Positions 19,397 to 61,091 of a DNA stretch of 64,000 nucleotides are shown in pieces (the first letter of the stretch is position 1; each line of letters begins with the position of its first letter). The position numbers and the translations under genes are program-made. This DNA is from Candidatus Paceibacter sp. (GTDB taxonomy: Bacteria > Patescibacteriota > Patescibacteriia > S139-126): contig DYGA01000005.1 of the NCBI GenBank assembly GCA_020724865.1, forward strand, positions 4,094 to 68,093, read 5' to 3'. Under the pieces are notes generated by a model. The model searched no databases. It had not been told where the DNA came from and saw nothing but the letters and a program-made list of their open reading frames with translations.

Positions 19397-19531
19397 CTCT
19401 TGCCAAAATTATCTAAGTTTGATATATTAGGTTTTGTTATTTAGAAAGTTAGGATATAGGATAAAGGAGTTAGGATTTAGTATTATTAAAATTAGTAATT
19501 AATAATTAGATATTAGTAATTTACATTGTAT

Positions 19532-19723: not shown

Positions 19724-19815
19724 AACGAGCAGGGCGGCGGGGCTACACTTCGGCTCGAGTGCGGCGGAAGGGGGGGGGGGGGGGGGAGGAATTCCGACGT
19801 GTTAGGACGGCTAGT
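19724..19815. other. GC-rich island with a G17 homopolymer (19770-19786), either an unassigned structured RNA or an assembly artefact
   Basis: A roughly 90-nt stretch at about 65-70% GC inside a genome of about 30% GC. It contains direct gcggcgg repeats and 17 consecutive G, and has no coding potential other than a poly-Pro artefact ORF. Confidence 0.3.
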
Positions 19816-25466: not shown

Positions 25467-25585
25467 TCTATAATTTGAATAATTATAATTATTAATTACT
25501 AATAACTAATTACTAATCAATGATTTATTTAAAAATTAAACAATTAATAGATTCATTAAAAATTAGTAATTAAAGATTAATAATT

Positions 25586-25617
25586 AAAAAACCCCGAAAT
25601 TAATTTCGGGGTTTTTA
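25586..25617. terminator. Bidirectional terminator between the VanZ gene and zupT
   Basis: aaaaaccccgaaat/atttcggggttttt perfect palindromic stem. Confidence 0.8.
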
Positions 25618-30320: not shown

Positions 30321-30390
30321 ATAATTATAAATTTTTAAATATAAATTATAAATCAAAATTAAATTTTAAAATTTATAATTTATAATTTTC
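30321..30390. repeat. AT-only long inverted repeat element (aattataaattttt ... aaaatttataatt) in the asnS leader
   Basis: The arms are reverse complements. A related element sits at 57455-57530. Confidence 0.5.
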
Positions 30391-30401
30391 AATTTAATTT
30401 T

Positions 30402-48192: not shown

Positions 48193-48490
48193 GATTTTAA
48201 TTTAATTTTTTTTATCCTTTATCCTAGTTGCTTAATCCTAATTCTTGACATAATACGTAAAAAGTGTATAATAATATGATTTGTTCAATATAAAATAAAA
48301 TAAAAAAGGAAAAATAATGTTTGAAAGACAACTCGCACCACCAGTAAAATTTTTTTGGTTTATAACTAAAATATCCATAACAGTTTTATTGGGTTTTGTA
48401 ATACTTTCTTACGTATTACATTAATTTATATATTGCCGCTCGAAATTCGTGCGGCTTTTTTATTTAGTAAATATTTTGTATGATAAGAGT

Positions 48491-51844: not shown

Positions 51845-51971
51845 CCACTATTATCAAAAATTGCTAAATTTAATATATTTGTTATAATCCTAGTATTACA
51901 CTAGGAGTTTTTGATTAATTATTAATAACCAATTATCAATTATTAATAAATTTTATAATTATTTAATTTTT

Positions 51972-51994
51972 AATTTGAAAATTAATTAGTAATT
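51972..51994. repeat. AT-rich dispersed motif (reverse complement ATTAATAACTAATTACTAATTAA) about 20 bp upstream of the Rrf2 gene
   Basis: It shares an ATTAATAACTAAT..TACTAAT core with 25481-25520 and 53176-53215. Confidence 0.4.
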
Positions 51995-52010
51995 AGTTAT
52001 TAATATTATT

Positions 52011-52421
52011 ATGTCTTTCTTAAAAGCATCAACCAAAGAGCAGTATTTACTTAGATTAGCTTTACGTTTGGCTAAAACTTATTATACCCGTCAACCGTTG
52101 TCTTTACAGCAAGTTGCTAAACAAGAAAAAATCTCAGAAAAATATTTGGAAGAATTGGTCGTTTTTTTAAAACAACAGGGCTTGGTTCGGGCTAAATTGG
52201 GGCGTAACGGTGGGTATATTTTTAAAAAAAATCCTCGTTTAGTTTCCGTTTGGGATGTTTTATTTGCTGAAAAAAAATATCCTAAATTGGCTACTTGTTT
52301 GGAACATAATAGTTTTTGTCCGTTGGTTATCGGTTGTCAAGCTAAAATTGTCTGGCAAAAAGTCCAAACTGAGGTGGAAAAAACATTAAACAAAGTTACT
52401 TTGAATTCATTAATTAGTTAA
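52011..52421 (+). CDS. Rrf2-family transcriptional regulator (IscR-like, 3 Cys)
   Basis: Rrf2 wHTH plus C-x6-C-x5-C cluster ligands. It is the first gene of the suf operon. Confidence 0.75.
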   Translation: MSFLKASTKEQYLLRLALRLAKTYYTRQPLSLQQVAKQEKISEKYLEELVVFLKQQGLVRAKLGRNGGYIFKKNPRLVSVWDVLFAEKKYPKLATCLEHNSFCPLVIGCQAKIVWQKVQTEVEKTLNKVTLNSLIS

Positions 52422-52425
52422 TTGT

Positions 52426-53169
52426 ATGGCATCACTTCTTATTATAAAAAACTTAAAAGTTAATATTGAAAACAAGCCAATCCTAAAAGGGGTAAATTTG
52501 CAAGTGCCAGTTGGTAAGGTAGTGGCTTTGATGGGAAAAAATGGCAGCGGTAAATCGACTCTGTCGCATGTATTGATGGGTAGCCCTGAATATAAGGTTG
52601 TTGGTGGCAGTGTTAGTTTAGGAGGTAAAAATATTTTACATTTATCAGCTGACGAGCGGGCTAGATTAGGAATATTTTTGGCTTTTCAATATCCCTATGA
52701 AATACCTGGACTGTCGGTATATCATTTTTTGCAAACTGCTGTTCAAGCTGTGCGTGGTAAAAAATTTAATATTGAAAAGTTTAAACAAGAATTAAAAGTA
52801 GCCATGAGCGATTTAAAATTATCGGAAAATTTTTTACAGCGAGGTTTAAATGAAGGTTTTTCGGGCGGTGAAAAAAAACGCATGGAGATTTTACAACTTA
52901 AATTATTACGACCCCGTTTGGCTATTTTGGATGAAACTGATTCGGGTTTGGATATTGATGCTCTTAAATTGGTAGCTGTTAATGTTAAGAAAATGGTTAA
53001 GCAGAAAATGTCGGTTTTGGTCATAACTCATTATCAAAGATTGCTTAATTTTTTACCTCCCGATCAAGTCCATATTATGCATGAAGGCAGGATTGTTCAA
53101 AGCGGACAGGGTAGTTTAGTAAAAAAATTGGAGCAGCAAGGCTATGATTGGCTGGAGAGAAAGAATTAA
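52426..53169 (+). CDS. sufC: Fe-S cluster assembly ATPase SufC
   Basis: ABC ATPase Walker A GKNGSGKST, signature LSGGEKKR and Walker B ILDETDSGLD. Confidence 0.92.
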   Translation: MASLLIIKNLKVNIENKPILKGVNLQVPVGKVVALMGKNGSGKSTLSHVLMGSPEYKVVGGSVSLGGKNILHLSADERARLGIFLAFQYPYEIPGLSVYHFLQTAVQAVRGKKFNIEKFKQELKVAMSDLKLSENFLQRGLNEGFSGGEKKRMEILQLKLLRPRLAILDETDSGLDIDALKLVAVNVKKMVKQKMSVLVITHYQRLLNFLPPDQVHIMHEGRIVQSGQGSLVKKLEQQGYDWLERKN

Positions 53170-53175
53170 GAATAA

Positions 53176-53245
53176 TTATTAATTACTAATTATTAATAAC
53201 TAATGAATTTTATAATTAATTAATAAATTAAATCATTGATTCCTG
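53176..53245. repeat. Copy of the AT-rich dispersed motif plus an 8-bp GC stem hairpin (tcctgcct/aggcagga) in the sufC-sufB spacer
   Basis: attattaattactaattattaataactaatgaatt...aatcattgatt followed by tcctgcctaccggcaggcagga. Confidence 0.4.
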
Positions 53246-53300
53246 CCTACCGGCAGGCAGGAGTAATTAGTTATTTATAATTTTAATATTTATAAATATA

Positions 53301-54701
53301 ATGTCTCCAGTCAAAAATATATCAATTAATCCGGCTAAATATTATTTTCGCGATAACCATCGTCCGATTTTACGTGCTCCAAAAGGATTAAATGCTGATG
53401 TGGTTAAACTGATTTCTGCCCAAAAAAAGGAACCAGCTTGGTTGTTGGAAATGCGTTTAAGAGCATTGAAAATTTTTTTAGAAAAACCCTTGCCGACTTG
53501 GGGGGCTAATTTAAGCAAGATTGATTTTTCGGATATTTATTATTATATTAGACCAGCTCAAGAACGAGGGCTAACCTGGCAAGATGTACCAGAAAAAATA
53601 AAAAAAACCTTTGACCGACTGGGCATACCTCAAGCTGAAAGAAAATTTTTAGCTGGTGTTGGTGCTCAGTATGAGTCCGAAATGATATACCATAGTTTAA
53701 AAGATAAATGGTCTAAATTGGGCGTAATTTTTGCAGATATGTCAGAAGCGCCAGTTAAATATCCTGATTTAGTTAAAAAATATTTTGGTAAAATTGTTCC
53801 CAGTAAAGATAATAAATTTGCGGCTCTCAACAGCGCGGTTTGGTCGGGCGGTTCATTTATTTATGTGCCTCGAGGGGTGAAAGTTGAAATACCTTTACAG
53901 GCTTATTTTCGTATAAATGCCGCTGGTATGGGTCAATTTGAACGAACGCTGATAATTGCTGATGAAGGCTCTTCTGTCCATTATATTGAAGGTTGCACCG
54001 CGCCTATGTATTCTAGGGACTCTTTGCATGCGGCAGTAGTTGAGTTAGTTGCGTTAAAAGGCGCTCATATCAGATATACTACTATTCAAAATTGGTCACA
54101 TAATGTTTATAACTTGGTGACCAAACGAGCCTGGGCTGAAGAGGAGGCAGTGGTTGAATGGATAGATGGCAATTTGGGTAGTAAGGTAACTATGAAATAT
54201 CCTTGTGTAATACTAAAAGGCAGAAAATCCCGAGCAGAGATTATTTCTGTTGCTTTTGCTAATTCCAATCAACACCAAGATGCTGGCAGTAAGGTTATTC
54301 ACTTAGCGCCAGAGACTAGCTCCAATGTAATTGCTAAATCTATTGCCAAAGGTAATGGTCGCACTACCTATCGTGGTTTAGTCCAGGTTGATAAACGGGC
54401 AAACAAAGCCAAAGTTAAAGTTAAATGTGATGCTTTATTGATTGATCGGCAGTCACGCAGTGATACTTATCCTACAATGCGTATAGATAATGATAATGTT
54501 ACCATTGAACACGAAGCTACGGTAGCTAAAATTGGCGAACAACAGCTTTATTATTTAAATTCCCGGGGATTGGATACAGAAACAGCTGAACGTTTGATTG
54601 TTTCCGGGTTTTTTGAAGTATTTGCCAGAGAGTTGCCGATGGAATATGCTTTAGAGTTAAATCGACTAATTGCTCTGGAAATGGAAGGGAGTGTTGGTTA
54701 A
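53301..54701 (+). CDS. sufB: Fe-S cluster assembly protein SufB
   Basis: A 466-aa SufB/SufD-fold protein with the C-terminal IGEQQLYYLNSRGL motif. Confidence 0.92.
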   Translation: MSPVKNISINPAKYYFRDNHRPILRAPKGLNADVVKLISAQKKEPAWLLEMRLRALKIFLEKPLPTWGANLSKIDFSDIYYYIRPAQERGLTWQDVPEKIKKTFDRLGIPQAERKFLAGVGAQYESEMIYHSLKDKWSKLGVIFADMSEAPVKYPDLVKKYFGKIVPSKDNKFAALNSAVWSGGSFIYVPRGVKVEIPLQAYFRINAAGMGQFERTLIIADEGSSVHYIEGCTAPMYSRDSLHAAVVELVALKGAHIRYTTIQNWSHNVYNLVTKRAWAEEEAVVEWIDGNLGSKVTMKYPCVILKGRKSRAEIISVAFANSNQHQDAGSKVIHLAPETSSNVIAKSIAKGNGRTTYRGLVQVDKRANKAKVKVKCDALLIDRQSRSDTYPTMRIDNDNVTIEHEATVAKIGEQQLYYLNSRGLDTETAERLIVSGFFEVFARELPMEYALELNRLIALEMEGSVG

Positions 54702-55773: not shown

Positions 55774-57017
55774 CGCAAATAAAAGACAACAATATAAAAA
55801 ATGATTTTCCGATTTTTAAACAGGCCAAAGTAAAAAAACGTCCTTTGGTATATTTAGATAGCGCCGCCACCAGTCAAAAGCCACATAGTGTAATAAATGC
55901 CGTGTCTGATTGGTATGAACGTTTTAATGCCAATATTCATCGGGGCGTGTATGAACTGTCAGAAACTGCTACCAAGAAGTATGAATTATCAAGACAGGTG
56001 ATAGCCAATTTTATAAATTCGCCAAGTTCCAGACAAGTCGTCTTTACCAGAGGCACAACTGAAGGTATAAATTTAGTGGCGGAAGCTTGGGCAAGAAAAA
56101 ATTTGCGTGCGGGTGACGCTATATTACTTACCACTATGGAGCATCATGCCAATCTGGTACCATGGCAAGAGTTAGCTCAGAGGAAAAGATTGAAATTAAA
56201 ATTTTTGGAATTTGACAATCAAGGTGAGTTGATTTTGGCTAATTTAGCCAAGCAGTTAATGGGGGTAAAGTTGGTAAGTTTGGTTTATGTATCCAATGTT
56301 TTAGGGACCATAAATCCCGTCAAAAAGATTATCAATATTTGTCATCAAAAAAAAATTCCGGTTTTAATTGATGCCGCTCAAGCAGCACCGCATTTGCCGA
56401 TTGATGTAAAGAAACTTGATTGCGATTGGTTGGTATTTTCTGGACATAAAATGCTGGGTCCGACTGGGATCGGAGTATTGTATGGCAAAAGAGAAAGATT
56501 TGAAGAAATGGATGTTTATCAAACCGGTGGTGATATGATAAGAAATGTGACTTTAACTAAAAGTACCTATGCTACTTATCCACAAAAATTTGAAGCAGGA
56601 ACGCAAGCTTTAGCAGAAGTTGTAGGTTTGGCTGAAGCAGTTATTTATTTACAAGCAATCGGTATGGAACGAGTATCTAGCCATGATCAAAAATTAGTTA
56701 CTTATGCTTATCAGCAGATGAAGAAGATTAAAGCTGTGGAAATTTACGGACCGCAGACGATTAAACGGTCAGGTAGCATTGCTTTCAATGTGCAAGGAAT
56801 TCACGCTCATGATTTAGCCACTTTTTTAGCTGATCGGGGTATTTGTATTAGAGCCGGACATCATTGTGCTCAGCCACTACATGAAAAACTGGGAATACCT
56901 GCTTCGGCTCGAGTGAGTTTTTATATTTACAATGACAAACGTGATGTTGATTTATTTATTTCGGCTTTACAGGCAATTATTAAAGAGTGGGAAAGTATAA
57001 AAGCACGTAACACATAG
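55770..57017 (+). CDS. sufS: Cysteine desulfurase SufS
   Basis: PLP motif SGHKMLGPTGIG and active-site C in HHCAQP. It ends with TAG inside repeat R1. Confidence 0.92.
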   Translation: MTQIKDNNIKNDFPIFKQAKVKKRPLVYLDSAATSQKPHSVINAVSDWYERFNANIHRGVYELSETATKKYELSRQVIANFINSPSSRQVVFTRGTTEGINLVAEAWARKNLRAGDAILLTTMEHHANLVPWQELAQRKRLKLKFLEFDNQGELILANLAKQLMGVKLVSLVYVSNVLGTINPVKKIINICHQKKIPVLIDAAQAAPHLPIDVKKLDCDWLVFSGHKMLGPTGIGVLYGKRERFEEMDVYQTGGDMIRNVTLTKSTYATYPQKFEAGTQALAEVVGLAEAVIYLQAIGMERVSSHDQKLVTYAYQQMKKIKAVEIYGPQTIKRSGSIAFNVQGIHAHDLATFLADRGICIRAGHHCAQPLHEKLGIPASARVSFYIYNDKRDVDLFISALQAIIKEWESIKARNT

Positions 57018-57049
57018 CACACAGCACGTAACACATAACATGTAACATG
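57004..57049 (+). repeat. Heptamer-unit repeat R1: two tandem copies of the 16-bp element CAYGTAACACATAACA (one mismatch, then exact) plus an extra unit
   Basis: cacgtaacacatagca cacag cacgtaacacataaca tgtaacatg. It contains the sufS TAG stop (57015-57017). Confidence 0.7.
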
Positions 57050-57091
57050 ATGATATAGTTGTGTGTTAGATGCTACAGGTATCATAAATTT

Positions 57092-57454
57092 ATGGATCTA
57101 TATCAGCAAAAAATAATGGATCATTATTTACACCCCAGGCATCAGGGTAAAATTGGCAAACCTACTAAAAAGTTTACTGGTGAAAATATATCTTGCGGTG
57201 ATAAAGTTGATTTTGAGGTTGTCTTGGACAGTCGTGGTAAAATTAAACAGGTAGGTTGGCAGGGTAGTGGTTGTACAATTTCTCAGGCGGCAGCGTCAAT
57301 TTTGGCAGATGAAATGATTGGTAAAACCATTAAACAGGTGCAAAGTATAAGTTCGGATAAGTTTTTACAAGATTTAGAAGTTGAATTATCACCGGCGCGG
57401 CAAAAGTGTGCTCTATTACCTTTATATACGGTTAAGGAAGAAGAGTTAGGATAG
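57092..57454 (+). CDS. sufU: SufU/IscU-like Fe-S scaffold
   Basis: CGD ... GSGCTISQAAAS ... C motifs. The start is at the internal Met MDLYQQ. Confidence 0.8.
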   Translation: MDLYQQKIMDHYLHPRHQGKIGKPTKKFTGENISCGDKVDFEVVLDSRGKIKQVGWQGSGCTISQAAASILADEMIGKTIKQVQSISSDKFLQDLEVELSPARQKCALLPLYTVKEEELG

Positions 57455-57530
57455 AATTATAAATTTTAAATTTTAAATTATAAAAAAATAGTCATTAGTT
57501 TAAAATTTAAAATTTATAATTTAAAATTAA
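57455..57530. repeat. AT-only long inverted repeat element (aattataaattttaaattttaaattataaa ... tttaaaatttaaaatttataatttaaaatt)
   Basis: The arms are reverse-complementary. It is related to the element at 30321-30390. Confidence 0.5.
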
Positions 57531-57620
57531 TTAATCTATGTACAAAAAGAAAAAACAAGCTAGAAAAAAACAACTAAAAAAACGTGGTAAAAAAATCGGA
57601 TTACTCCATTATCGATAAGA

Positions 57621-57653
57621 AAAACTCCCGTATTATAACGGGAGTTTTATTTT
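57621..57653. terminator. Bidirectional terminator
   Basis: ctcccg-tattataa-cgggag stem with flanking A- and T-runs. Confidence 0.75.
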
Positions 57654-57658
57654 ATTAT

Positions 57659-57880
57659 TTAAACTTTCTGCTCCGATTGATTTTTTTTCGATTCTTTTTC
57701 TGCAATATAAATGGTGATCGCACCACAGACAATTGAAGCGATTATAGCGCTTATAGTTACAGTAGAGATTTGCTCTTCATTGTTGGGATTGAAAATAACT
57801 AAACAGATGGGGAAAATAATGAAAATATATAAGCCGCTATAAATTAAAAATTGGATAAAAAAGATAACAATTTTTTTCAT
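57659..57880 (-). CDS. Small 2-TM membrane protein (73 aa)
   Basis: Hydrophobic ORF followed by a terminator. Confidence 0.4.
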   Translation of the reverse strand: MKKIVIFFIQFLIYSGLYIFIIFPICLVIFNPNNEEQISTVTISAIIASIVCGAITIYIAEKESKKNQSEQKV

Positions 57881-58024
57881 TTAACGCTCCTTTTTATTGT
57901 TAATGTTTTTGATTAATTATTTTAACATATTGGCAATTGAAGTTATCCACATATTCTAAAAATAGGCAATTTTGGCTTATTTTTTTGTACATTGACTTTC
58001 GGTTTTTTTTCGGTATATACTATA

Positions 58025-58054
58025 CATGTAACATATAACACATAACATATAACA
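58025..58054 (+). repeat. Heptamer-unit repeat R2 (tgtaaca tataaca cataaca tataaca) upstream of lexA
   Basis: 16-mer catgtaacatataaca, with one mismatch to the consensus. It contains the palindrome TACATGTA. Confidence 0.7.
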
Positions 58055-58083
58055 GAAATATTATAAAAAATTGTTAAAATTAT

Positions 58084-58719
58084 ATGCCGTTAAATTTCCT
58101 TACCAAACGTCAAAAACAAATACTTGATTTTATTATTGGTTTTATTGCAGACAATGGTTATGCTCCTACTTTTCAAGAGATTGGTGAATATTTTGATTTG
58201 TCGTCACCGGCTACTGTACATCAGCATATTAAAGCTTTGGAAGAAAAGGGTTATTTAAAATCAGAATACAATGCCAAGCGATCATTAGAAGTTTTATCAG
58301 TCAAAGATGATTCTATGAGTTTAGCTTATCAAATTCCTCTGGTAGGGCTTATTACTGCCGGTGAGCCAATTGAAGCTATCGAAGAGCACGAGACTATTGC
58401 CGTTCCTTCCAATTTAGTACTGCATCAGGAAAATACTTTTGTTTTGCAAGTTAAAGGCGATTCAATGGTTGGAGATGGTATATTGTCCGGTGATTATGTA
58501 GTAGTAGAGAGAAGTAATTATCCAAAAAATGGTGACATAATTGTGGCTTTACTTGATAATACTTATGCAACTTTGAAAAGATTTTATCGTGAGCAAACGA
58601 GAATACGTTTACAGCCGGCCAATGGTAAATATAAGCCAATTTATGTCAAAGATTTGATAGTGCAAGGTATAGTGAGAGGGGTGATTAGGAATTATAGTTA
58701 TATAACACGTAACACATAA
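58084..58719 (+). CDS. lexA: LexA-family repressor (S24 peptidase)
   Basis: N-terminal wHTH (LTKRQKQILDFI...), cleavage-site region, and Ser/Lys dyad motifs GDSM and TLKRF. The stop TAA lies inside repeat R3. Confidence 0.85.
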   Translation: MPLNFLTKRQKQILDFIIGFIADNGYAPTFQEIGEYFDLSSPATVHQHIKALEEKGYLKSEYNAKRSLEVLSVKDDSMSLAYQIPLVGLITAGEPIEAIEEHETIAVPSNLVLHQENTFVLQVKGDSMVGDGILSGDYVVVERSNYPKNGDIIVALLDNTYATLKRFYREQTRIRLQPANGKYKPIYVKDLIVQGIVRGVIRNYSYITRNT

Positions 58720-58728
58720 CACGTAACA
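58701..58728 (+). repeat. Heptamer-unit repeat R3 (exact 16-mer CACGTAACACATAACA at 58706-58721, plus a cgtaaca unit)
   Basis: It encodes the lexA C-terminus ...RNT and its TAA stop. It abuts the start of the four-helix-bundle gene. Confidence 0.75.
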
Positions 58729-58729
58729 T

Positions 58730-59086
58730 ATGGAGGAGAGATTTCACGATCATTTAAAGAAAATAATGGACGAGTTTGTTCATTTAATTTATAAGGAGAC
58801 TAGAAATTTTCCTAAAGAATAGTTATACGGAGTAACTTCACAAATAAGAAGAGCAGCTTTATCGATAATATTAAATTATATAGAGGGTTTTGCTAGAATA
58901 AAAAACGGCATTAAAATAAATTTTTTAGAAATTTCTTATGGTTCATTAAAAGAGGTAAAGTACCTTTTAAATTTTTCTTTACAGGAAAAATATATATCAG
59001 AATTAAATTATAAAAAATTATTAGGTTATGCAGAGGAAATTGGAGCAATGCTTTGGACAAGTATCAGAGGCTTAAAGGAAAATTAA
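58730..59086 (+). pseudogene. Four-helix-bundle protein of the Avd / 23S-rRNA-intervening-sequence family, interrupted by an in-frame TAG at 58820-58822
   Basis: Manual translation: MEERFHDHLKKIMDEFVHLIYKETRNFPKE*LYGVTSQIRRAALSIILNYIEGFARIKNGIKINFLEISYGSLKEVKYLLNFSLQEKYISELNYKKLLGYAEEIGAMLWTSIRGLKEN. The family hallmark FPKEE.YGLTSQLRRAA.SI spans the stop. TAG is a genuine stop elsewhere (sufS, DUF192). Confidence 0.65.
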
Positions 59087-59089
59087 TTT

Positions 59090-59119
59090 TGTTATGTGTT
59101 ACATGCTAAATGTTACATG
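59090..59119 (-). repeat. Heptamer-unit repeat R4, inverted orientation (exact reverse complement of CATGTAACACATAACA at 59090-59105, plus a second tgttacatg)
   Basis: It begins 4 nt after the stop of the four-helix-bundle gene. Confidence 0.75.
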
Positions 59120-59582
59120 AAATAAAACGCCCGTATCTGGCATAAAGGAAGACACGGACGTTTGCACCAACCGTTGCCGTCCTGGCAACAAAATGTTTGT
59201 GGCGCTATTTATATTGTAAAAATATTTTTTCATTATAGTCAAATATTTTCTGGTTGTGGATAACTTTATTTATTTAAATTATTTATTAAGTATTGAGTAG
59301 CAATTATTAAGTTTTATGAATAAAGAAATAATTTTGATTTTTTTACTGAGTTTGTATCTTGTTTTGTGAGTTATTTAGTATTTATAAAATTAAAATTTAC
59401 AATAAACATATGAAAAAAAATAAATTTTTTCTTAAACCCTATTTATTAATCAGAAAGCCAAAATCAGTATTACCGAAACGTAGTATATATTCTTTGACTT
59501 TTGGCCAGTGGCCACGTTTTTCCCGTAGCTAGTTTATTAAACACTAAATCCTATATCCTGCATCCTAAATCCTAAATTTTTT

Positions 59583-59831
59583 ATGCACGAAAAAATTAAT
59601 CAAACAATTGATGTTGAAGTAATATTTTTGCATAATCGAGTAATTCCAAGGAGTTTTTCCTGGCAAGGAGTAATTTATCGTATTAAAACTTTAGGGCTTA
59701 GACATGATACTTATATAGGCAGAGAAAAAATACATTATTTTTCCGTATCAGATGGAGTTAATTTTTTCCGTTTGCGTTTTTCTGGCGACAGTTTAATTTG
59801 GCAATTGGAAGAAATTTATAATGACATGTAA
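59583..59831 (+). CDS. Hypothetical 82-aa protein upstream of dinB
   Basis: ORF whose TAA stop is supplied by repeat R5. It has no clear family. By position it could be a polymerase accessory (UmuD/YolD-like role), but that is unsupported by sequence. Confidence 0.35.
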   Translation: MHEKINQTIDVEVIFLHNRVIPRSFSWQGVIYRIKTLGLRHDTYIGREKIHYFSVSDGVNFFRLRFSGDSLIWQLEEIYNDM

Positions 59832-59854
59832 CACATAACATTTAACCTGTAACA
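59825..59854 (+). repeat. Heptamer-unit repeat R5 (exact CATGTAACACATAACA at 59825-59840, then tttaacc tgtaaca)
   Basis: It contains the stop of the 82-aa ORF and lies 38 nt upstream of the dinB start. Confidence 0.75.
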
Positions 59855-59891
59855 AATAATAATTAATTTTATGAAGGGCGAGGATATTATC

Positions 59892-61091
59892 ATGCACGTT
59901 GATATGAATTCGTACTTTGCCACAGTTGAACAGCAAGCCAATCCATTATTGCGTGGTAAGCCAGTAGGAGTATGCGCCTATTTATCGCCCAAGGGTTGCA
60001 TTATTGCTGCTTCTCAGGAAGCCAAAAAATTTGGCGTACGGACGGGTATGCGGGTTAGTGAAGCAAAAAAAATTTGCCCTCAAATTATCTTGTTGGCAAA
60101 TGATCCTGATAAATATAGATTTATTTCCCGGCAGATATTTTCTGTTCTCAAAAAAATATCTGATGATGTAGAAGTTTATTCTATTGACGAGGCATTTATT
60201 GATTTGACTGGATTAGCAAAAGATTTTAATGTCGCTCAAGCGATTGCTAAAAAAATAAAACAAACAATTAGAGATGAAATTGGTAGTTATCTAACTTGTT
60301 CAATAGGAATATCCCACACCAGATGGTTGGCAAAATTTGCTTCCGAAGAAAATAAACCAGACGGTTTAACTATTATTACCCAACAAGATTTAGCAAATAT
60401 ATTTAAAGACCGCCCTTTACAGCATGCTTGGGGCATAGGTCGGGCTTTGGAGTGCCGTTTACAACTTTTAGGTATAGAAAATTTATACCAGTTGCAACAT
60501 AGTTCACCCAGTTTTTTGCAAACTAATTTAGGTTGGTATGGGTATTATTTGTGGTGTCATCTCAATGGTATTGAAGTCGAAGGGGTTGATGCTCAACGGA
60601 ATCAGTTGCCAAAATCAATTGGACATTCTTATTGTTTGCCTAAGATAACAAATGATAAAGATTATTTAGTGAGAATAATGTCCAAATTAACCTGGCAAGC
60701 CGCTAGCCGGATGCGTTCATTAAATCTGCAAACTGGTAAAATTAGTTGTGGTTACCATAATGTTGCTGGGCAAACATTGTTTCGTAGCTGGAAATTGCCC
60801 CGATATTTATATGATTCAGTTGATATTATAAAACAAGCATTACTTTTATTTACTCAACCAATTATCAGTAAAATAAATTTTTTAGCTGTTAGTTTAAATG
60901 ATTTAGTTTTTAGATCAGGTCAGCTTTCATTTTTTACAGATGAAATAAAAAAAAGTAATTTAAATAAAGCCATAGATACTGTCAATAATAAATTTGGCAA
61001 GTTTACATTATTGCCAGGTAGTCTAATAAATTTTCGTGAATTTCCACCTGATAGAATAGGGTTTAGAAAAAACATAAGATATGAATCTTGA
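59892..61091 (+). CDS. dinB: Y-family DNA polymerase (DinB/Pol IV-like)
   Basis: MHVDMNSYFATVEQ start, an SIDEAF(I)D catalytic motif, palm/fingers/thumb and little-finger domains. It is about 400 aa. Confidence 0.85.
   Translation: MHVDMNSYFATVEQQANPLLRGKPVGVCAYLSPKGCIIAASQEAKKFGVRTGMRVSEAKKICPQIILLANDPDKYRFISRQIFSVLKKISDDVEVYSIDEAFIDLTGLAKDFNVAQAIAKKIKQTIRDEIGSYLTCSIGISHTRWLAKFASEENKPDGLTIITQQDLANIFKDRPLQHAWGIGRALECRLQLLGIENLYQLQHSSPSFLQTNLGWYGYYLWCHLNGIEVEGVDAQRNQLPKSIGHSYCLPKITNDKDYLVRIMSKLTWQAASRMRSLNLQTGKISCGYHNVAGQTLFRSWKLPRYLYDSVDIIKQALLLFTQPIISKINFLAVSLNDLVFRSGQLSFFTDEIKKSNLNKAIDTVNNKFGKFTLLPGSLINFREFPPDRIGFRKNIRYES

What the first reader, a model, noticed from the sequence alone, without database searches (positions are those of the whole stretch)
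57004..59854. Five copies of a 16-bp element built from 7-bp tandem units delimit lexA, an Avd-like gene, a small ORF and dinB, and supply three stop codons
The element CAYGTAACACATAACA occurs five times in 2.85 kb. The copies are exact at 57025, 58706, 59090 (inverted) and 59825, and carry one mismatch at 57004 and 58025. I saw none in the other 61 kb. Each copy is made of YRTAACA heptamers in tandem. Three genes terminate inside the element using its TAA/TAG: sufS and lexA both end ...RNT*, and the 82-aa ORF ends inside it too. Further copies sit 4 nt after the four-helix-bundle gene and immediately upstream of lexA, the four-helix-bundle gene and dinB. Repeats that define gene ends and gene boundaries behave like recombination or cassette-boundary sites (attC-like, or a local MITE/REP family), not like a simple operator. 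That lexA and dinB in particular are delimited is unusual.
Basis: seen in the sequence. Interest (0 to 1): 0.78.

Follow-up and report, generated by a model that had tools for sequence, protein, structure and literature searches.

The report
Heptamer-repeat arms of gene-junction stem-loops
The repeated 16-mer is part of five short arrays of tandem 7-base units, a kind of repeat that fills gene junctions in this small-genome (Patescibacteria) bacterium; two of the arrays form a stem around a four-helix-bundle gene, as in ribosomal-RNA intervening sequences, and none is the LexA binding site or a gene-cassette recombination site.

Summary
All ten occurrences of TAACANNTAACA in the 64 kb lie in 57005-59853. 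They form five arrays of four to six tandem heptamers (A-Y-R-T-A-A-C), and three ORFs do stop inside them.

The arrays are not SOS boxes. The LexA operator is a separate direct repeat, TTCGG-N6-TTCGG, in the lexA promoter spacer (57997-58015), and it is conserved across Patescibacteria. The arrays are also not attC-like sites. Close relatives keep the same gene order, and no recombinase was found.

Period-7 arrays are a general feature of this lineage's gene junctions. Relatives carry arrays at the same junctions but with different units. Arrays often occur as inverted pairs that fold into stem-loops.

Arrays C and D are the two arms of such a stem. It encloses an S23p/four-helix-bundle ORF, here carrying a nonsense mutation. 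The same bracketing was seen in 8 of 12 independent four-helix-bundle genes against 2 of 145 control genes, with different unit sequences. It mirrors the Coxiella 23S rRNA intervening sequence.

Each forward unit carries TAA and 7 is not a multiple of 3, so three units close all reading frames. That explains the shared stop codons.

RNase III-type processing is inferred, not shown. Moderately interesting; a new variant of known kinds.

The parts
57005..57046 (+). Array A: six tandem heptamers (two degenerate) spanning the end of sufS and the sufS|sufU junction. It holds the sufS stop TAG at 57015-57017.
   Evidence: A weak local hairpin with 57057-57080 is predicted (-21.8 kcal/mol, z -1.4, not significant). 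In L003 an inverted array of the same family sits at this junction.
57992..58021 (+). lexA promoter (TTGACT, 18-nt spacer, TATACT) with the real LexA box TTTCGGTTTTTTTTCGGTA at 57997-58015 in the spacer. This is context, not part of the repeat family.
   Evidence: promoter scan; the only match in the window; the same TTCGG-N6-TTCGG box lies upstream of lexA in most of the 80 Patescibacteria loci, and upstream of 82-aa-ORF homologues, dinB and uvrB-like genes in others.
58026..58053 (+). Array B: four heptamers (ATGTAAC ATATAAC ACATAAC ATATAAC) starting 4 nt after the -10 hexamer, so in the lexA 5' leader.
   Evidence: Unstructured on its own (z -0.6). 81% complementary to D over 36 nt (pair I2). 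An orthologous array is present in L202 and, shorter, in L001.
58084..58719 (+). lexA. Its last codons (R N T stop) are encoded by array C.
   Evidence: Relatives end ...NYQRI* or ...EYEK* instead, so the tail was remodelled by the array.
58700..58727 (+). Array C: four heptamers (ATATAAC ACGTAAC ACATAAC ACGTAAC). It is the 5' arm of the stem that closes the four-helix-bundle ORF and ends 2 nt before that ORF's ATG.
   Evidence: pair I10; both the minimum-energy and the centroid fold pair C with D. Identical in the near-identical strain L215.
58730..59086 (+). S23p / four-helix-bundle ORF (23S rRNA intervening-sequence protein family) with an in-frame TAG at 58820-58822.
   Evidence: PF05635, 92 bits. 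P0001 in L215 is 99% identical and intact, with GAG where the window has TAG.
59091..59118 (-). Array D: four heptamers on the minus strand (ATGTAAC ATTTAGC ATGTAAC ACATAAC). It is the 3' arm of the stem around the four-helix-bundle ORF and the only inverted copy.
   Evidence: (pairs I2, I6, I10, I23).
59119..59206 (-). Conserved structured small-RNA-like gene on the minus strand: promoter TTGACT-18-TACAAT at 59242-59213, two hairpins, U-tail. It abuts array D. Context only.
   Evidence: -37 kcal/mol, z -4.3, 0 of 200 shuffles fold as well; conserved in 8 genomes with some compensatory pairs. No Rfam match.
59544..59577 (+). A different heptamer array (CTAAATC-type units, about 5 of them) ending 5 nt before the ATG of the 82-aa ORF. 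Same class, other family; it is the reverse complement of the 19450 array.
59826..59853 (+). Array E: four heptamers (ATGTAAC ACATAAC ATTTAAC CTGTAAC) starting 3 nt after a TATAAT hexamer (59817-59822). It holds the stop of the 82-aa ORF and lies 17 nt before the dinB ATG.
   Evidence: Less structured than shuffles (z +1.3). In L202 the orthologous array has a local inverted partner and folds into a hairpin (z -4.8).
59871..61091 (+). dinB (Y-family polymerase). An alternative start at 59892 has a better Shine-Dalgarno-like GAGGA.

Best explanation
The 16-mer is the most regular stretch of five arrays of tandem heptamers (consensus A-Y-R-T-A-A-C). They are one sequence family of a class of short-tandem-repeat arrays that occupy gene junctions and 5' leaders in this Patescibacteria lineage.

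The working unit is a pair: a forward array and an inverted array that fold into a stem-loop on the transcript. The loop is either short or carries an S23p/four-helix-bundle ORF, as in 23S rRNA intervening sequences.

In this window:
- C and D are the two arms of such an intervening-sequence-like module. It is attached to the 3' end of lexA and encloses a four-helix-bundle gene carrying a nonsense mutation.
- A has at best a weak local partner.
- B and E are unpaired forward arms in the leaders of lexA and dinB. E's partner arm still exists in relative L202.

Each forward unit contains TAA, and 7 is not a multiple of 3. Three units therefore close all three reading frames, and any ORF that drifts into an array ends there. 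This explains the three stop codons and the shared ...RNT* tails.

LexA does not bind these arrays. Its operator is the TTCGG-N6-TTCGG direct repeat in the promoter spacer.

Shown: the anatomy, the separate operator, arrays at the same junctions in relatives but with different units, and the specific bracketing of four-helix-bundle genes by covarying stems.

Inferred: the stems act at the RNA level as RNase III-type processing, stability or terminator elements, by analogy with intervening sequences. Also inferred: the arrays arise by replication slippage and are homogenised between neighbouring junctions by recombination.
For: 1. Anatomy and clustering.

2. Class membership.
- Strict period-7 arrays number 8 to 9 in the window, against 0 to 4 for periods 5, 6 and 8-11 and none in shuffles. 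Seven of 9 are intergenic in a window that is 89% coding.
- In 1.04 Mb of Patescibacteria loci there are 89 period-7 arrays, 32 of period 8, and 3 to 14 of each other period.
- Other arrays lie at 19450-19521, 25480-25590, 30321-30396, 51914-52011, 53165-53300, 57455-57528 and 59544-59577.

3. Same junctions, different units.
- The syntenic loci L001, L002 and L006 (LexA 89-91% identical, DNA-binding helix nearly identical) carry arrays at sufS|sufU, the lexA leader and upstream of dinB, but with units such as AATTCGT/AATTCTT.
- L202 keeps the window's family at positions B, C, D and E.

4. Paired arrays fold. z-scores are -6.7 for 57450-57535 and -4.0 for 53160-53305, and -4.8 for L001 just after lexA, -4.8 for E+E' in L202, and -5.9 for L091, which has the window's family.

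5. Four-helix-bundle bracketing.
- Minimum-energy and centroid folds close the ORF with the flanking arrays in the window, L006 and L020, using three different units.
- Flank duplex energy is -20 kcal/mol or lower for 8 of 12 independent four-helix-bundle genes, against 2 of 145 other genes (mean -8.9, sd 3.9).
- L211 carries the CATGTAAC family around a 68%-identical four-helix-bundle gene in a hydrogenase operon.

6. Precedent. The Coxiella 23S intervening sequence has an S23p ORF, a 28-bp terminal inverted-repeat stem cut by RNase III, a variable number of tandem heptamers just before the S23p ATG, and a decaying ORF (PMC4990558). Here the arms are 28 nt long and the ORF carries a nonsense codon.

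7. The operator is elsewhere.
Against: - No transcript or cleavage data exist, so RNA-level action and RNase III are by analogy only.
- Sense versus antisense duplex energies are mixed across the 12 four-helix-bundle loci. G-U asymmetry therefore does not show which strand folds, or whether DNA folds.
- B and E have no local partner in the window, and A's hairpin is not significant. Three of the five copies are therefore explained by homology to paired arrays in relatives, not by a structure seen here.
- The whole-transcript folds of the cassettes are not unusually stable overall (z -1.7, +0.2 and -0.9). Only the terminal stems stand out.
- Two of the 12 four-helix-bundle genes (L002, L017) have weak flank pairing.
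- None of 120 metagenome loci holding three or more perfect TAACAYR units carries a four-helix-bundle ORF. The family is therefore not specific to the cassette.
- The cause of within-genome homogeneity is not established.
Confidence: 0.52

Rival explanations
1. Neutral microsatellite-like arrays. Heptamer repeats arise by polymerase slippage in AT-rich spacers and persist because spacers are unconstrained. Stops and leader positions are side effects. Pairing around the four-helix-bundle gene belongs to that gene's own element only.
For: - Heptamers are the commonest long simple-sequence repeats in many bacteria, and slippage has been proposed as the cause (Mrazek 2007, as summarised in PMC4679880 and PMC4692102).
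- Unit sequences turn over between close relatives.
- More distant relatives with higher G+C (L004, L005, L038) almost lack arrays yet keep the genes.
- There is no significant bias towards sense-strand stop codons (18 against 11).
Against: - Independent slippage does not explain why several junctions in one genome share a unit family while the orthologous junctions of another genome share a different one.
- It also does not explain why arrays so often come as inverted pairs that fold with z of -4 to -6.7.
- Arrays C and D are identical in the only near-identical strain sampled, L215.
Confidence: 0.15
2. Terminal inverted repeats and footprints of a mobile four-helix-bundle cassette. C and D are the ends of a selfish element. 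A, B and E are solo ends left by local hops or copied from the element by gene conversion.
For: - The four-helix-bundle gene changes position (after lexA, before lexA, absent). It also sits between co-directional genes in unrelated operons.
- In each genome the solo arrays near lexA share the unit family of the resident cassette.
- L211 has the window's family around a related four-helix-bundle gene.
Against: - No transposase or recombinase lies in or next to the cassettes, except a XerC-like gene in L213.
- No target-site duplication was seen at the window versus L001 boundary.
- Array hairpins without an ORF occupy the same sites in relatives. This fits insertion of an ORF into an existing hairpin at least as well.
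- The family occurs in 120 metagenome loci without any four-helix-bundle ORF.
Confidence: 0.12
3. Translation-leader elements. The forward arrays are unstructured A/C/U-rich leaders recognised by ribosomal protein S1, a cold-shock protein or a similar RNA binder. They support initiation without a Shine-Dalgarno sequence and stop upstream ribosomes in every frame.
For: - B, C and E lie 2 to 30 nt upstream of start codons that lack an obvious Shine-Dalgarno sequence.
- B and E are unstructured, and E is less folded than 186 of 200 shuffles.
- The same proposal was made for TAACTGA repeats in Beggiatoaceae (PMC4679880).
Against: - D is inverted and precedes no gene.
- Unit sequences differ freely between relatives, so a sequence-specific binder is unlikely.
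- Many arrays are arms of stable hairpins rather than open leaders.
Confidence: 0.1
4. Operator or iteron sites for LexA or another DNA-binding regulator that co-regulates lexA, dinB, the four-helix-bundle gene and sufU.
For: - B and E begin 3 to 4 nt after -10 hexamers, a classical repressor position.
- Direct-repeat LexA motifs exist in several phyla (PMC8565304, PMC7739468).
Against: - A separate box, TTCGG-N6-TTCGG, sits in the lexA promoter. It is conserved upstream of lexA, 82-aa-ORF homologues, dinB and uvrB-like genes across Patescibacteria.
- Relatives with a nearly identical LexA DNA-binding helix have different units at the same places.
- A 7-bp period does not match the helical repeat.
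- Arrays of the same family also lie at non-SOS junctions, such as sufS|sufU, and before a transporter gene in L002 and L006.
Confidence: 0.04
5. attC-like or other site-specific recombination sites that delimit exchangeable gene cassettes.
For: - The copies sit at gene ends, and one gene between two copies varies in position among relatives.
Against: - Gene order is conserved for everything except the four-helix-bundle gene.
- The arrays are tandem direct repeats, not attC-type imperfect palindromes with conserved core sites.
- Four copies are direct and one is inverted, unlike the uniform orientation in integrons.
- No integrase was found.
Confidence: 0.04

Closest known systems
23S rRNA intervening sequences that carry an S23p (four-helix-bundle) ORF, e.g. 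Coxiella burnetii, Leptospira (PMC4990558)
   Same: An ORF of the S23p/PF05635 family closed by terminal inverted repeats of about 28 nt. Tandem heptamer repeats lie immediately before the ORF's start codon. The ORF is prone to decay: a nonsense codon here, reductive evolution in Coxiella. Versions with and without an ORF exist.
   Different: It sits in the lexA operon, and in relatives in other mRNA operons, not in helix 25 or 45 of 23S rRNA. Both arms are built entirely from tandem heptamers or octamers. RNase III excision is not shown here.
Intergenic heptanucleotide tandem repeats: cyanobacterial STRR sequences, TAACTGA repeats of Beggiatoaceae/Cyanobacteria/Bacteroidetes (PMC4679880), GGGAATC repeats of Xanthomonas (PMC4692102)
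   Same: Units are 7 nt, with a few copies per array. They are intergenic and often lie just upstream of start codons. In forward orientation they give stops in all frames. In Xanthomonas they sit at the same intergenic positions in related species with length and sequence variation, and some form inverted pairs.
   Different: Here there are many unit families per genome rather than one dominant heptamer. Neighbouring junctions share a family. The arrays are systematically used as arms of stem-loops and as brackets of four-helix-bundle genes. The host is a Patescibacteria lineage; two full-text searches for such repeats in that group returned no report.
Direct-repeat LexA operators (GTTC-N7-GTTC of Alphaproteobacteria; Patescibacteria motif of Sanchez-Osuna et al. 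2017, cited in PMC7739468 but not readable here)
   Same: Direct repeats next to lexA and dinB.
   Different: The real box in this window is TTCGG-N6-TTCGG, with an 11-bp period, inside the promoter spacer. The heptamer arrays have a 7-bp period, lie downstream of the -10 hexamer or at gene ends, and are not conserved among relatives.
Integron attC sites and REP/MITE-type extragenic repeats
   Same: Short repeats at gene boundaries that can form hairpins when paired.
   Different: There is no integrase or RAYT-type transposase. The repeats have tandem direct-repeat architecture, and the genes between copies are syntenic core genes.

Membership tests
LexA operator (SOS box) | The motif is conserved upstream of lexA and other SOS genes in genomes with a similar LexA DNA-binding domain. 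| tested here: not met
   Units at the lexA leader and upstream of dinB differ in L001, L002 and L006, although the recognition helix is nearly identical. A different motif, TTCGG-N6-TTCGG, meets this criterion.
LexA operator (SOS box) | LexA binds the motif in vitro. | not testable with these tools
   Needs gel-shift or footprinting with purified LexA.
Integron attC site | An imperfect palindrome with conserved core sites, one per promoterless cassette, all in one orientation, together with an IntI integrase and attI. | tested here: not met
   The arrays are tandem direct heptamers. There are four forward copies and one inverted copy. No integrase was found among the 20 scanned ORFs or by phmmer. 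The full genome was not available.
Integron attC site | Genes between sites are present, absent or shuffled between strains. | tested here: not met
   Only the four-helix-bundle gene varies. lexA, the 41-aa ORF, the 82-aa ORF and dinB keep their order in L001, L002, L006 and L202.
Intergenic heptanucleotide tandem repeats (STRR / long simple-sequence repeats) | Head-to-tail 7-nt units, three or more copies, mostly intergenic, at many loci per genome. | tested here: met
   Period 7 dominates, and 7 of 9 strict arrays are intergenic in a window that is 89% coding.
Intergenic heptanucleotide tandem repeats (STRR / long simple-sequence repeats) | Length or sequence varies at orthologous positions in relatives. 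| tested here: met
   No variation was seen between the window and the near-identical strain L215.
S23p-type intervening sequence | ORF of the S23p / 23S_rRNA_IVP family. | tested here: met
   PF05635 scores 92 bits against a cut-off of 33.8. More than 2000 homologues were found.
S23p-type intervening sequence | Terminal inverted repeats form a stem that closes the element. | tested here: met
   The same holds in L006, L020, L202, L207, L208, L211 and L213 with different unit sequences.
S23p-type intervening sequence | Inserted in helix 25 or 45 of the 23S rRNA gene. | tested here: not met
   The module lies between lexA and a small-RNA gene. No rRNA is present in the window. It is therefore described as intervening-sequence-like, not as a member.
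S23p-type intervening sequence | Excised from the transcript by RNase III. | not testable with these tools
   Needs a cleavage assay or transcript-end mapping.
Diversity-generating retroelement accessory protein (Avd) | bAvd-type protein encoded next to a reverse transcriptase and template/variable repeats. | tested here: not met
   bAvd scores 34 bits, below its cut-off of 40. No reverse transcriptase gene lies nearby among the annotated neighbours.

The most novel reading that the evidence does not exclude
The arrays could be address tags of an RNA-level network. The inverted array D lies at the 3' end of the lexA / four-helix-bundle transcript. By base pairing, in cis or in trans, it would find the matching forward arrays in the leaders of lexA, dinB and sufU. 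That would commit those transcripts to double-strand-specific processing. The whole tag set would be replaced together in each lineage, which would explain the concerted change of unit family. The S23p/four-helix-bundle cassette would be a mobile, intervening-sequence-like passenger of such stems, with a preference for SOS gene leaders (lexA in L002, L006, L017 and L020; uvrA in L213).
Probability: 0.12. Interest if true: 0.75.

Novelty: new variant of a known kind. Interest (0 to 1): 0.47.

Why it matters
The four-helix-bundle/S23p family (PF05635) is very abundant in Patescibacteria: more than 2000 homologues of this one copy were found. Its function is unknown.

Its genes here are routinely enclosed by covarying stems made of tandem repeats, inside ordinary mRNA operons and behind LexA-controlled promoters. 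That links them to rRNA intervening sequences and gives a concrete, testable idea: RNase III-type excision from mRNAs.

The result also documents heptamer-repeat arrays as a main building material of gene junctions in a reduced-genome lineage. Neighbouring junctions share a unit family, and that family differs between relatives.

For annotation, it separates the real SOS box from look-alike repeats. It also explains odd shared C-terminal tails and stop codons.

Tried and rejected
- **LexA operator.** Rejected after finding the conserved TTCGG-N6-TTCGG box and non-conserved units in relatives.
- **attC or cassette sites.** Rejected on conserved synteny and the absence of a recombinase.
- **Avd / diversity-generating retroelement.** Pfam favours 23S_rRNA_IVP, and bAvd falls below its cut-off.
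- **Known RNA families.** Rfam gave only six tRNAs at gathering threshold. An E-value search of 56900-59950 gave nothing relevant.
- **G-U asymmetry** (sense against antisense duplex energy) to decide between RNA and DNA, and which strand folds. Results were mixed across the 12 loci, so this is inconclusive.
- **Selection for sense-strand stops in all three frames.** Among discordant junction arrays the count was 18 sense against 11 antisense, not significant.
- **Is the TAACAYR family tied to four-helix-bundle genes in general?** None of 120 metagenome loci with three perfect units had such an ORF. That set is heterogeneous and includes sequences that look eukaryotic or of high G+C.
- **A LexA box upstream of the 41-aa ORF, 82-aa ORF and dinB.** None was found with up to 2 mismatches.
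- **The key paper on the Patescibacteria SOS motif** (Sanchez-Osuna et al. 2017) is not held. The box was therefore derived here from the loci.
- **The whole genome of this organism** is not in the collections (best LexA match 91%). A genome-wide count of the family could not be made.

Full report
**Observation.**
The reported 16-mer is present where stated and is far beyond chance. It gives 9 matches with up to two mismatches, against 0.10 expected. All ten occurrences of the two-unit core TAACANNTAACA in the 64 kb lie between 57029 and 59840.

Read in register, the five sites are arrays of tandem heptamers with consensus A-Y-R-T-A-A-C:
- A, 57005-57046: six units, two of them degenerate.
- B, 58026-58053: four units.
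- C, 58700-58727: four units.
- D, 59091-59118: four units, minus strand.
- E, 59826-59853: four units.

The stop codons of sufS (TAG 57015-57017), lexA (TAA 58717-58719) and the 82-aa ORF (TAA 59829-59831) lie inside arrays A, C and E. Pfam confirms the genes: Aminotran_5, NifU_N, LexA_DNA_bind + Peptidase_S24, 23S_rRNA_IVP and IMS. The 'Avd-like' gene is better called an S23p/four-helix-bundle gene, because bAvd scores below its cut-off. It carries an in-frame TAG at 58820-58822.

**Not the SOS box.**
I fetched 80 loci encoding LexA relatives, almost all from Patescibacteria. Most carry a direct repeat of the form TTGAC(t/g)TTCGGTTTTTGTTCGGTAta in the promoter spacer upstream of lexA.

The window has it too: TTGACTTTCGGTTTTTTTTCGGTATATACT at 57992-58021. 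The box at 57997-58015 is the only one in the window. Elsewhere in the superphylum the same box precedes homologues of the 82-aa ORF (L029, L032, L033, L035), dinB (L041) and uvrB-like genes (L045, L068). It therefore behaves as the LexA operator. It has the GTTC-N7-GTTC architecture known from Alphaproteobacteria (PMC8565304). The heptamer arrays start 3 to 4 nt after the -10 hexamers and are a different thing.

**One family of a general class.**
- Strict period-7 arrays are specifically enriched in the window: 8 to 9, against 0 to 4 for periods 5, 6 and 8-11, and none in shuffles. They are mostly intergenic, although 89% of the window is coding.
- Tandem Repeats Finder and direct reading show further arrays with other units. 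These lie at 19450-19521 (between a promoter and tRNA-Lys), 25480-25590, 30321-30396, 48211-48240, 51914-52011, 53165-53300, 57455-57528 and 59544-59577.
- In 1.04 Mb of Patescibacteria loci, period 7 again dominates: 89 arrays, against 32 for period 8 and 3 to 14 for the others. They are concentrated in the window's close relatives.

Intergenic heptanucleotide repeats are a known, poorly understood class. Examples are the cyanobacterial STRR sequences, TAACTGA repeats upstream of start codons in Beggiatoaceae, and GGGAATC in Xanthomonas. The literature notes that heptamers are the commonest long simple repeats, and that forward units give stops in every frame (PMC4679880 and PMC4692102).

**Comparison with orthologous loci.**
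L001, L002 and L006 (LexA 89-91% identical) keep the order suf operon, lexA, small RNA, 41-aa ORF, 82-aa ORF, dinB, 94-aa ORF, transporter.

They carry arrays at the same junctions, but with other units. In L002 and L006 the family AATTCGT/AATTCTT occupies sufS|sufU, the lexA leader region, the dinB leader and the transporter leader. L202 (found through a 77%-identical four-helix-bundle protein) keeps the window's family at positions B, C, D and E. L003 has the window's family inverted at sufS|sufU and direct after sufU.

The LexA recognition helix is nearly identical in all of these. So position and periodicity are conserved, the unit sequence is not, and neighbouring junctions within one genome share a family. 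More distant relatives with higher G+C (L004, L005, L038) almost lack arrays.

**Arrays work in pairs.**
Many arrays are followed by an inverted array and fold into strong hairpins:
- 57450-57535: z -6.7.
- 53160-53305: z -4.0.
- L001 directly after lexA: z -4.8.
- L202 between the 82-aa ORF and dinB: z -4.8. This is array E plus a partner arm that the window has lost.
- L091, with the window's own family: z -5.9.

On their own, arrays B and E are unstructured.

**C and D bracket the four-helix-bundle gene.**
The window shares sequence with L001, L002 and L006 up to ...AGGAATTAT in lexA, and again from AAATAAAACGCCCG. Between those points the window and L202 hold [array C][four-helix-bundle ORF][array D]. 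RNA folding closes the ORF with the C:D stem in both the minimum-energy and the centroid structure.

The same holds in L006 and L020, where the arms are built from different 7-mers and from 8-mers. It also holds for further homologues that sit in unrelated operons: pseudopilins (L207), prfB|ftsE (L208), hydrogenase|hypA (L211, again with CATGTAAC units), and behind a LexA-box promoter before uvrA (L213).

With 45-nt flanks, 8 of 12 independent four-helix-bundle genes have a flank duplex of -20 kcal/mol or lower. Only 2 of 145 other genes in the same loci do (mean -8.9, sd 3.9). Stems that are kept while their sequence changes entirely argue that the pairing is selected.

**Precedent.**
The Coxiella burnetii 23S rRNA intervening sequence has these features (PMC4990558):
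- an S23p ORF;
- a 28-bp terminal inverted-repeat stem cut by RNase III;
- two or three tandem heptamers (GACAGAT) directly before the S23p start codon, varying in number between strains;
- an ORF undergoing decay.

The module C / four-helix-bundle ORF / D has 28-nt arms made of heptamers, the 5' arm ends 2 nt before the ATG, and the ORF carries a nonsense codon. That codon reads GAG in the otherwise near-identical strain L215, where both arms are identical. The module is therefore intervening-sequence-like. It is not in rRNA, so I do not file it as a member.

**The stop codons.**
Each forward unit contains TAA, and 7 is congruent to 1 modulo 3. Three units therefore put a stop in each frame, and any ORF running into a forward array ends within about two units. 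The point was made for TAACTGA. The LexA tail ...SYITRNT* replaces the ...QRI* or ...EYEK* of relatives, which shows that the array remodelled the 3' end. I found no significant general preference for the stop-bearing strand to be the sense strand (18 against 11). The stops therefore look like a consequence rather than a selected function.

**What remains inferred.**
- Nothing here shows transcripts or cleavage.
- Sense versus antisense duplex energies are mixed. I cannot say from sequence that the sense RNA is the folding species.
- The source of within-genome homogeneity is open. Gene conversion, local spread from the cassette, or a need to match the inverted copy are all possible.
- The TAACAYR family also occurs in 120 heterogeneous metagenome loci without any four-helix-bundle ORF. 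The family is therefore not cassette-specific.
- No recombinase was found among the 20 mid-size ORFs, or with a XerC-like query. The rest of the genome is not available.

**Verdict.**
This is a real feature, correctly seen, and ordinary in part: it belongs to the class of intergenic heptamer repeats, and the SOS operator lies elsewhere. It has one interesting aspect. Repeat-built stems enclose S23p/four-helix-bundle genes inside mRNA operons, including the lexA operon, across Patescibacteria. I rate it a new variant of known kinds, with an interest score of about 0.47.

Noticed in passing
window 59119-59206 (minus strand); promoter 59242-59213: A conserved small-RNA-like gene of about 90 nt lies between lexA and the dinB operon. 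It has two hairpins and a U-tail (-37 kcal/mol, z -4.3). It is conserved in 8 genomes (L001, L002, L003, L005, L006, L038, L202) with some compensatory pairs. It has no Rfam match.
   Followed up: partly
window 57943-57951 (+), 59255-59263 (-), also 56576 and 63711: A perfect DnaA-box-like TTATCCACA occurs upstream of the lexA promoter and 12 nt upstream of the -35 of the small-RNA promoter. There are 4 copies in the window against 0.81 expected. The same motif lies about 10 nt upstream of the lexA -35 in many Patescibacteria loci (L005, L009, L010, L012, L014, L016, L022 and others).
   Followed up: partly
window 59410-59532 (+): A conserved 40-aa ORF (MKKNKFFLKPYLL..LPKRS.YSLTFG..PRFSRS) lies upstream of the 82-aa ORF and dinB. 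It is kept in L001, L002, L006 and L202 and, diverged, in L038. Function unknown.
   Followed up: partly
window 57539-57619 (+): A conserved 26-aa, very basic ORF (MYKKKKQARKKQLKKRGKKIGLLHYR) lies after sufU and is followed by a strong terminator (57621-57648). It is also present in L001, L002 and L006.
   Followed up: no
window 58820-58822: The four-helix-bundle gene has an in-frame TAG. The near-identical strain L215 / P0001 has GAG (Glu) there and an intact 118-aa protein. This is a nonsense mutation or a sequencing error in this copy.
   Followed up: yes
window 59200-59900: No TTCGG-N6-TTCGG LexA box (up to 2 mismatches) lies upstream of the 41-aa ORF, 82-aa ORF and dinB in this lineage. 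Other Patescibacteria have it directly before the 82-aa-ORF homologue or dinB. Whether dinB is still SOS-regulated here is open.
   Followed up: partly
L002 5538-5996, L006 5525-5973, L017 1880-2362, L020 4317-4785, L213 about 930-1369: In four lexA loci the four-helix-bundle cassette sits between the LexA-box promoter and lexA. In L213 it sits between a LexA-box-like promoter and uvrA. All five four-helix-bundle genes found in the window and the 80 lexA loci are directly adjacent to lexA. This may indicate a preference for SOS gene leaders.
   Followed up: partly
window 19450-19521, 48211-48240, 59544-59577: A second dispersed heptamer family (TTAGGAT and its complement ATCCTAA) occurs in three places: between a promoter and tRNA-Lys, upstream of a promoter at about 48240, and just before the 82-aa ORF.
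   Followed up: no
window 19770-19786: A run of 17 G in a sequence with 33% G+C, about 160 nt after tRNA-Lys.
   Followed up: no
whole window: There is a strong strand asymmetry of the pentamer TAACA (51 on the plus strand, 141 on the minus strand). Nearly all genes are on the plus strand.
   Followed up: no
L137, L138, L139, L162 (metagenome loci): In other Patescibacteria-like contigs, junctions inside operons (for example secY|adk) hold a stop-bearing array (CACATAA)n followed by an ATG-bearing array (CATGTTY)n. The second array runs into the next gene's start and gives N-terminal extensions such as MFYVPCSM....
   Followed up: no
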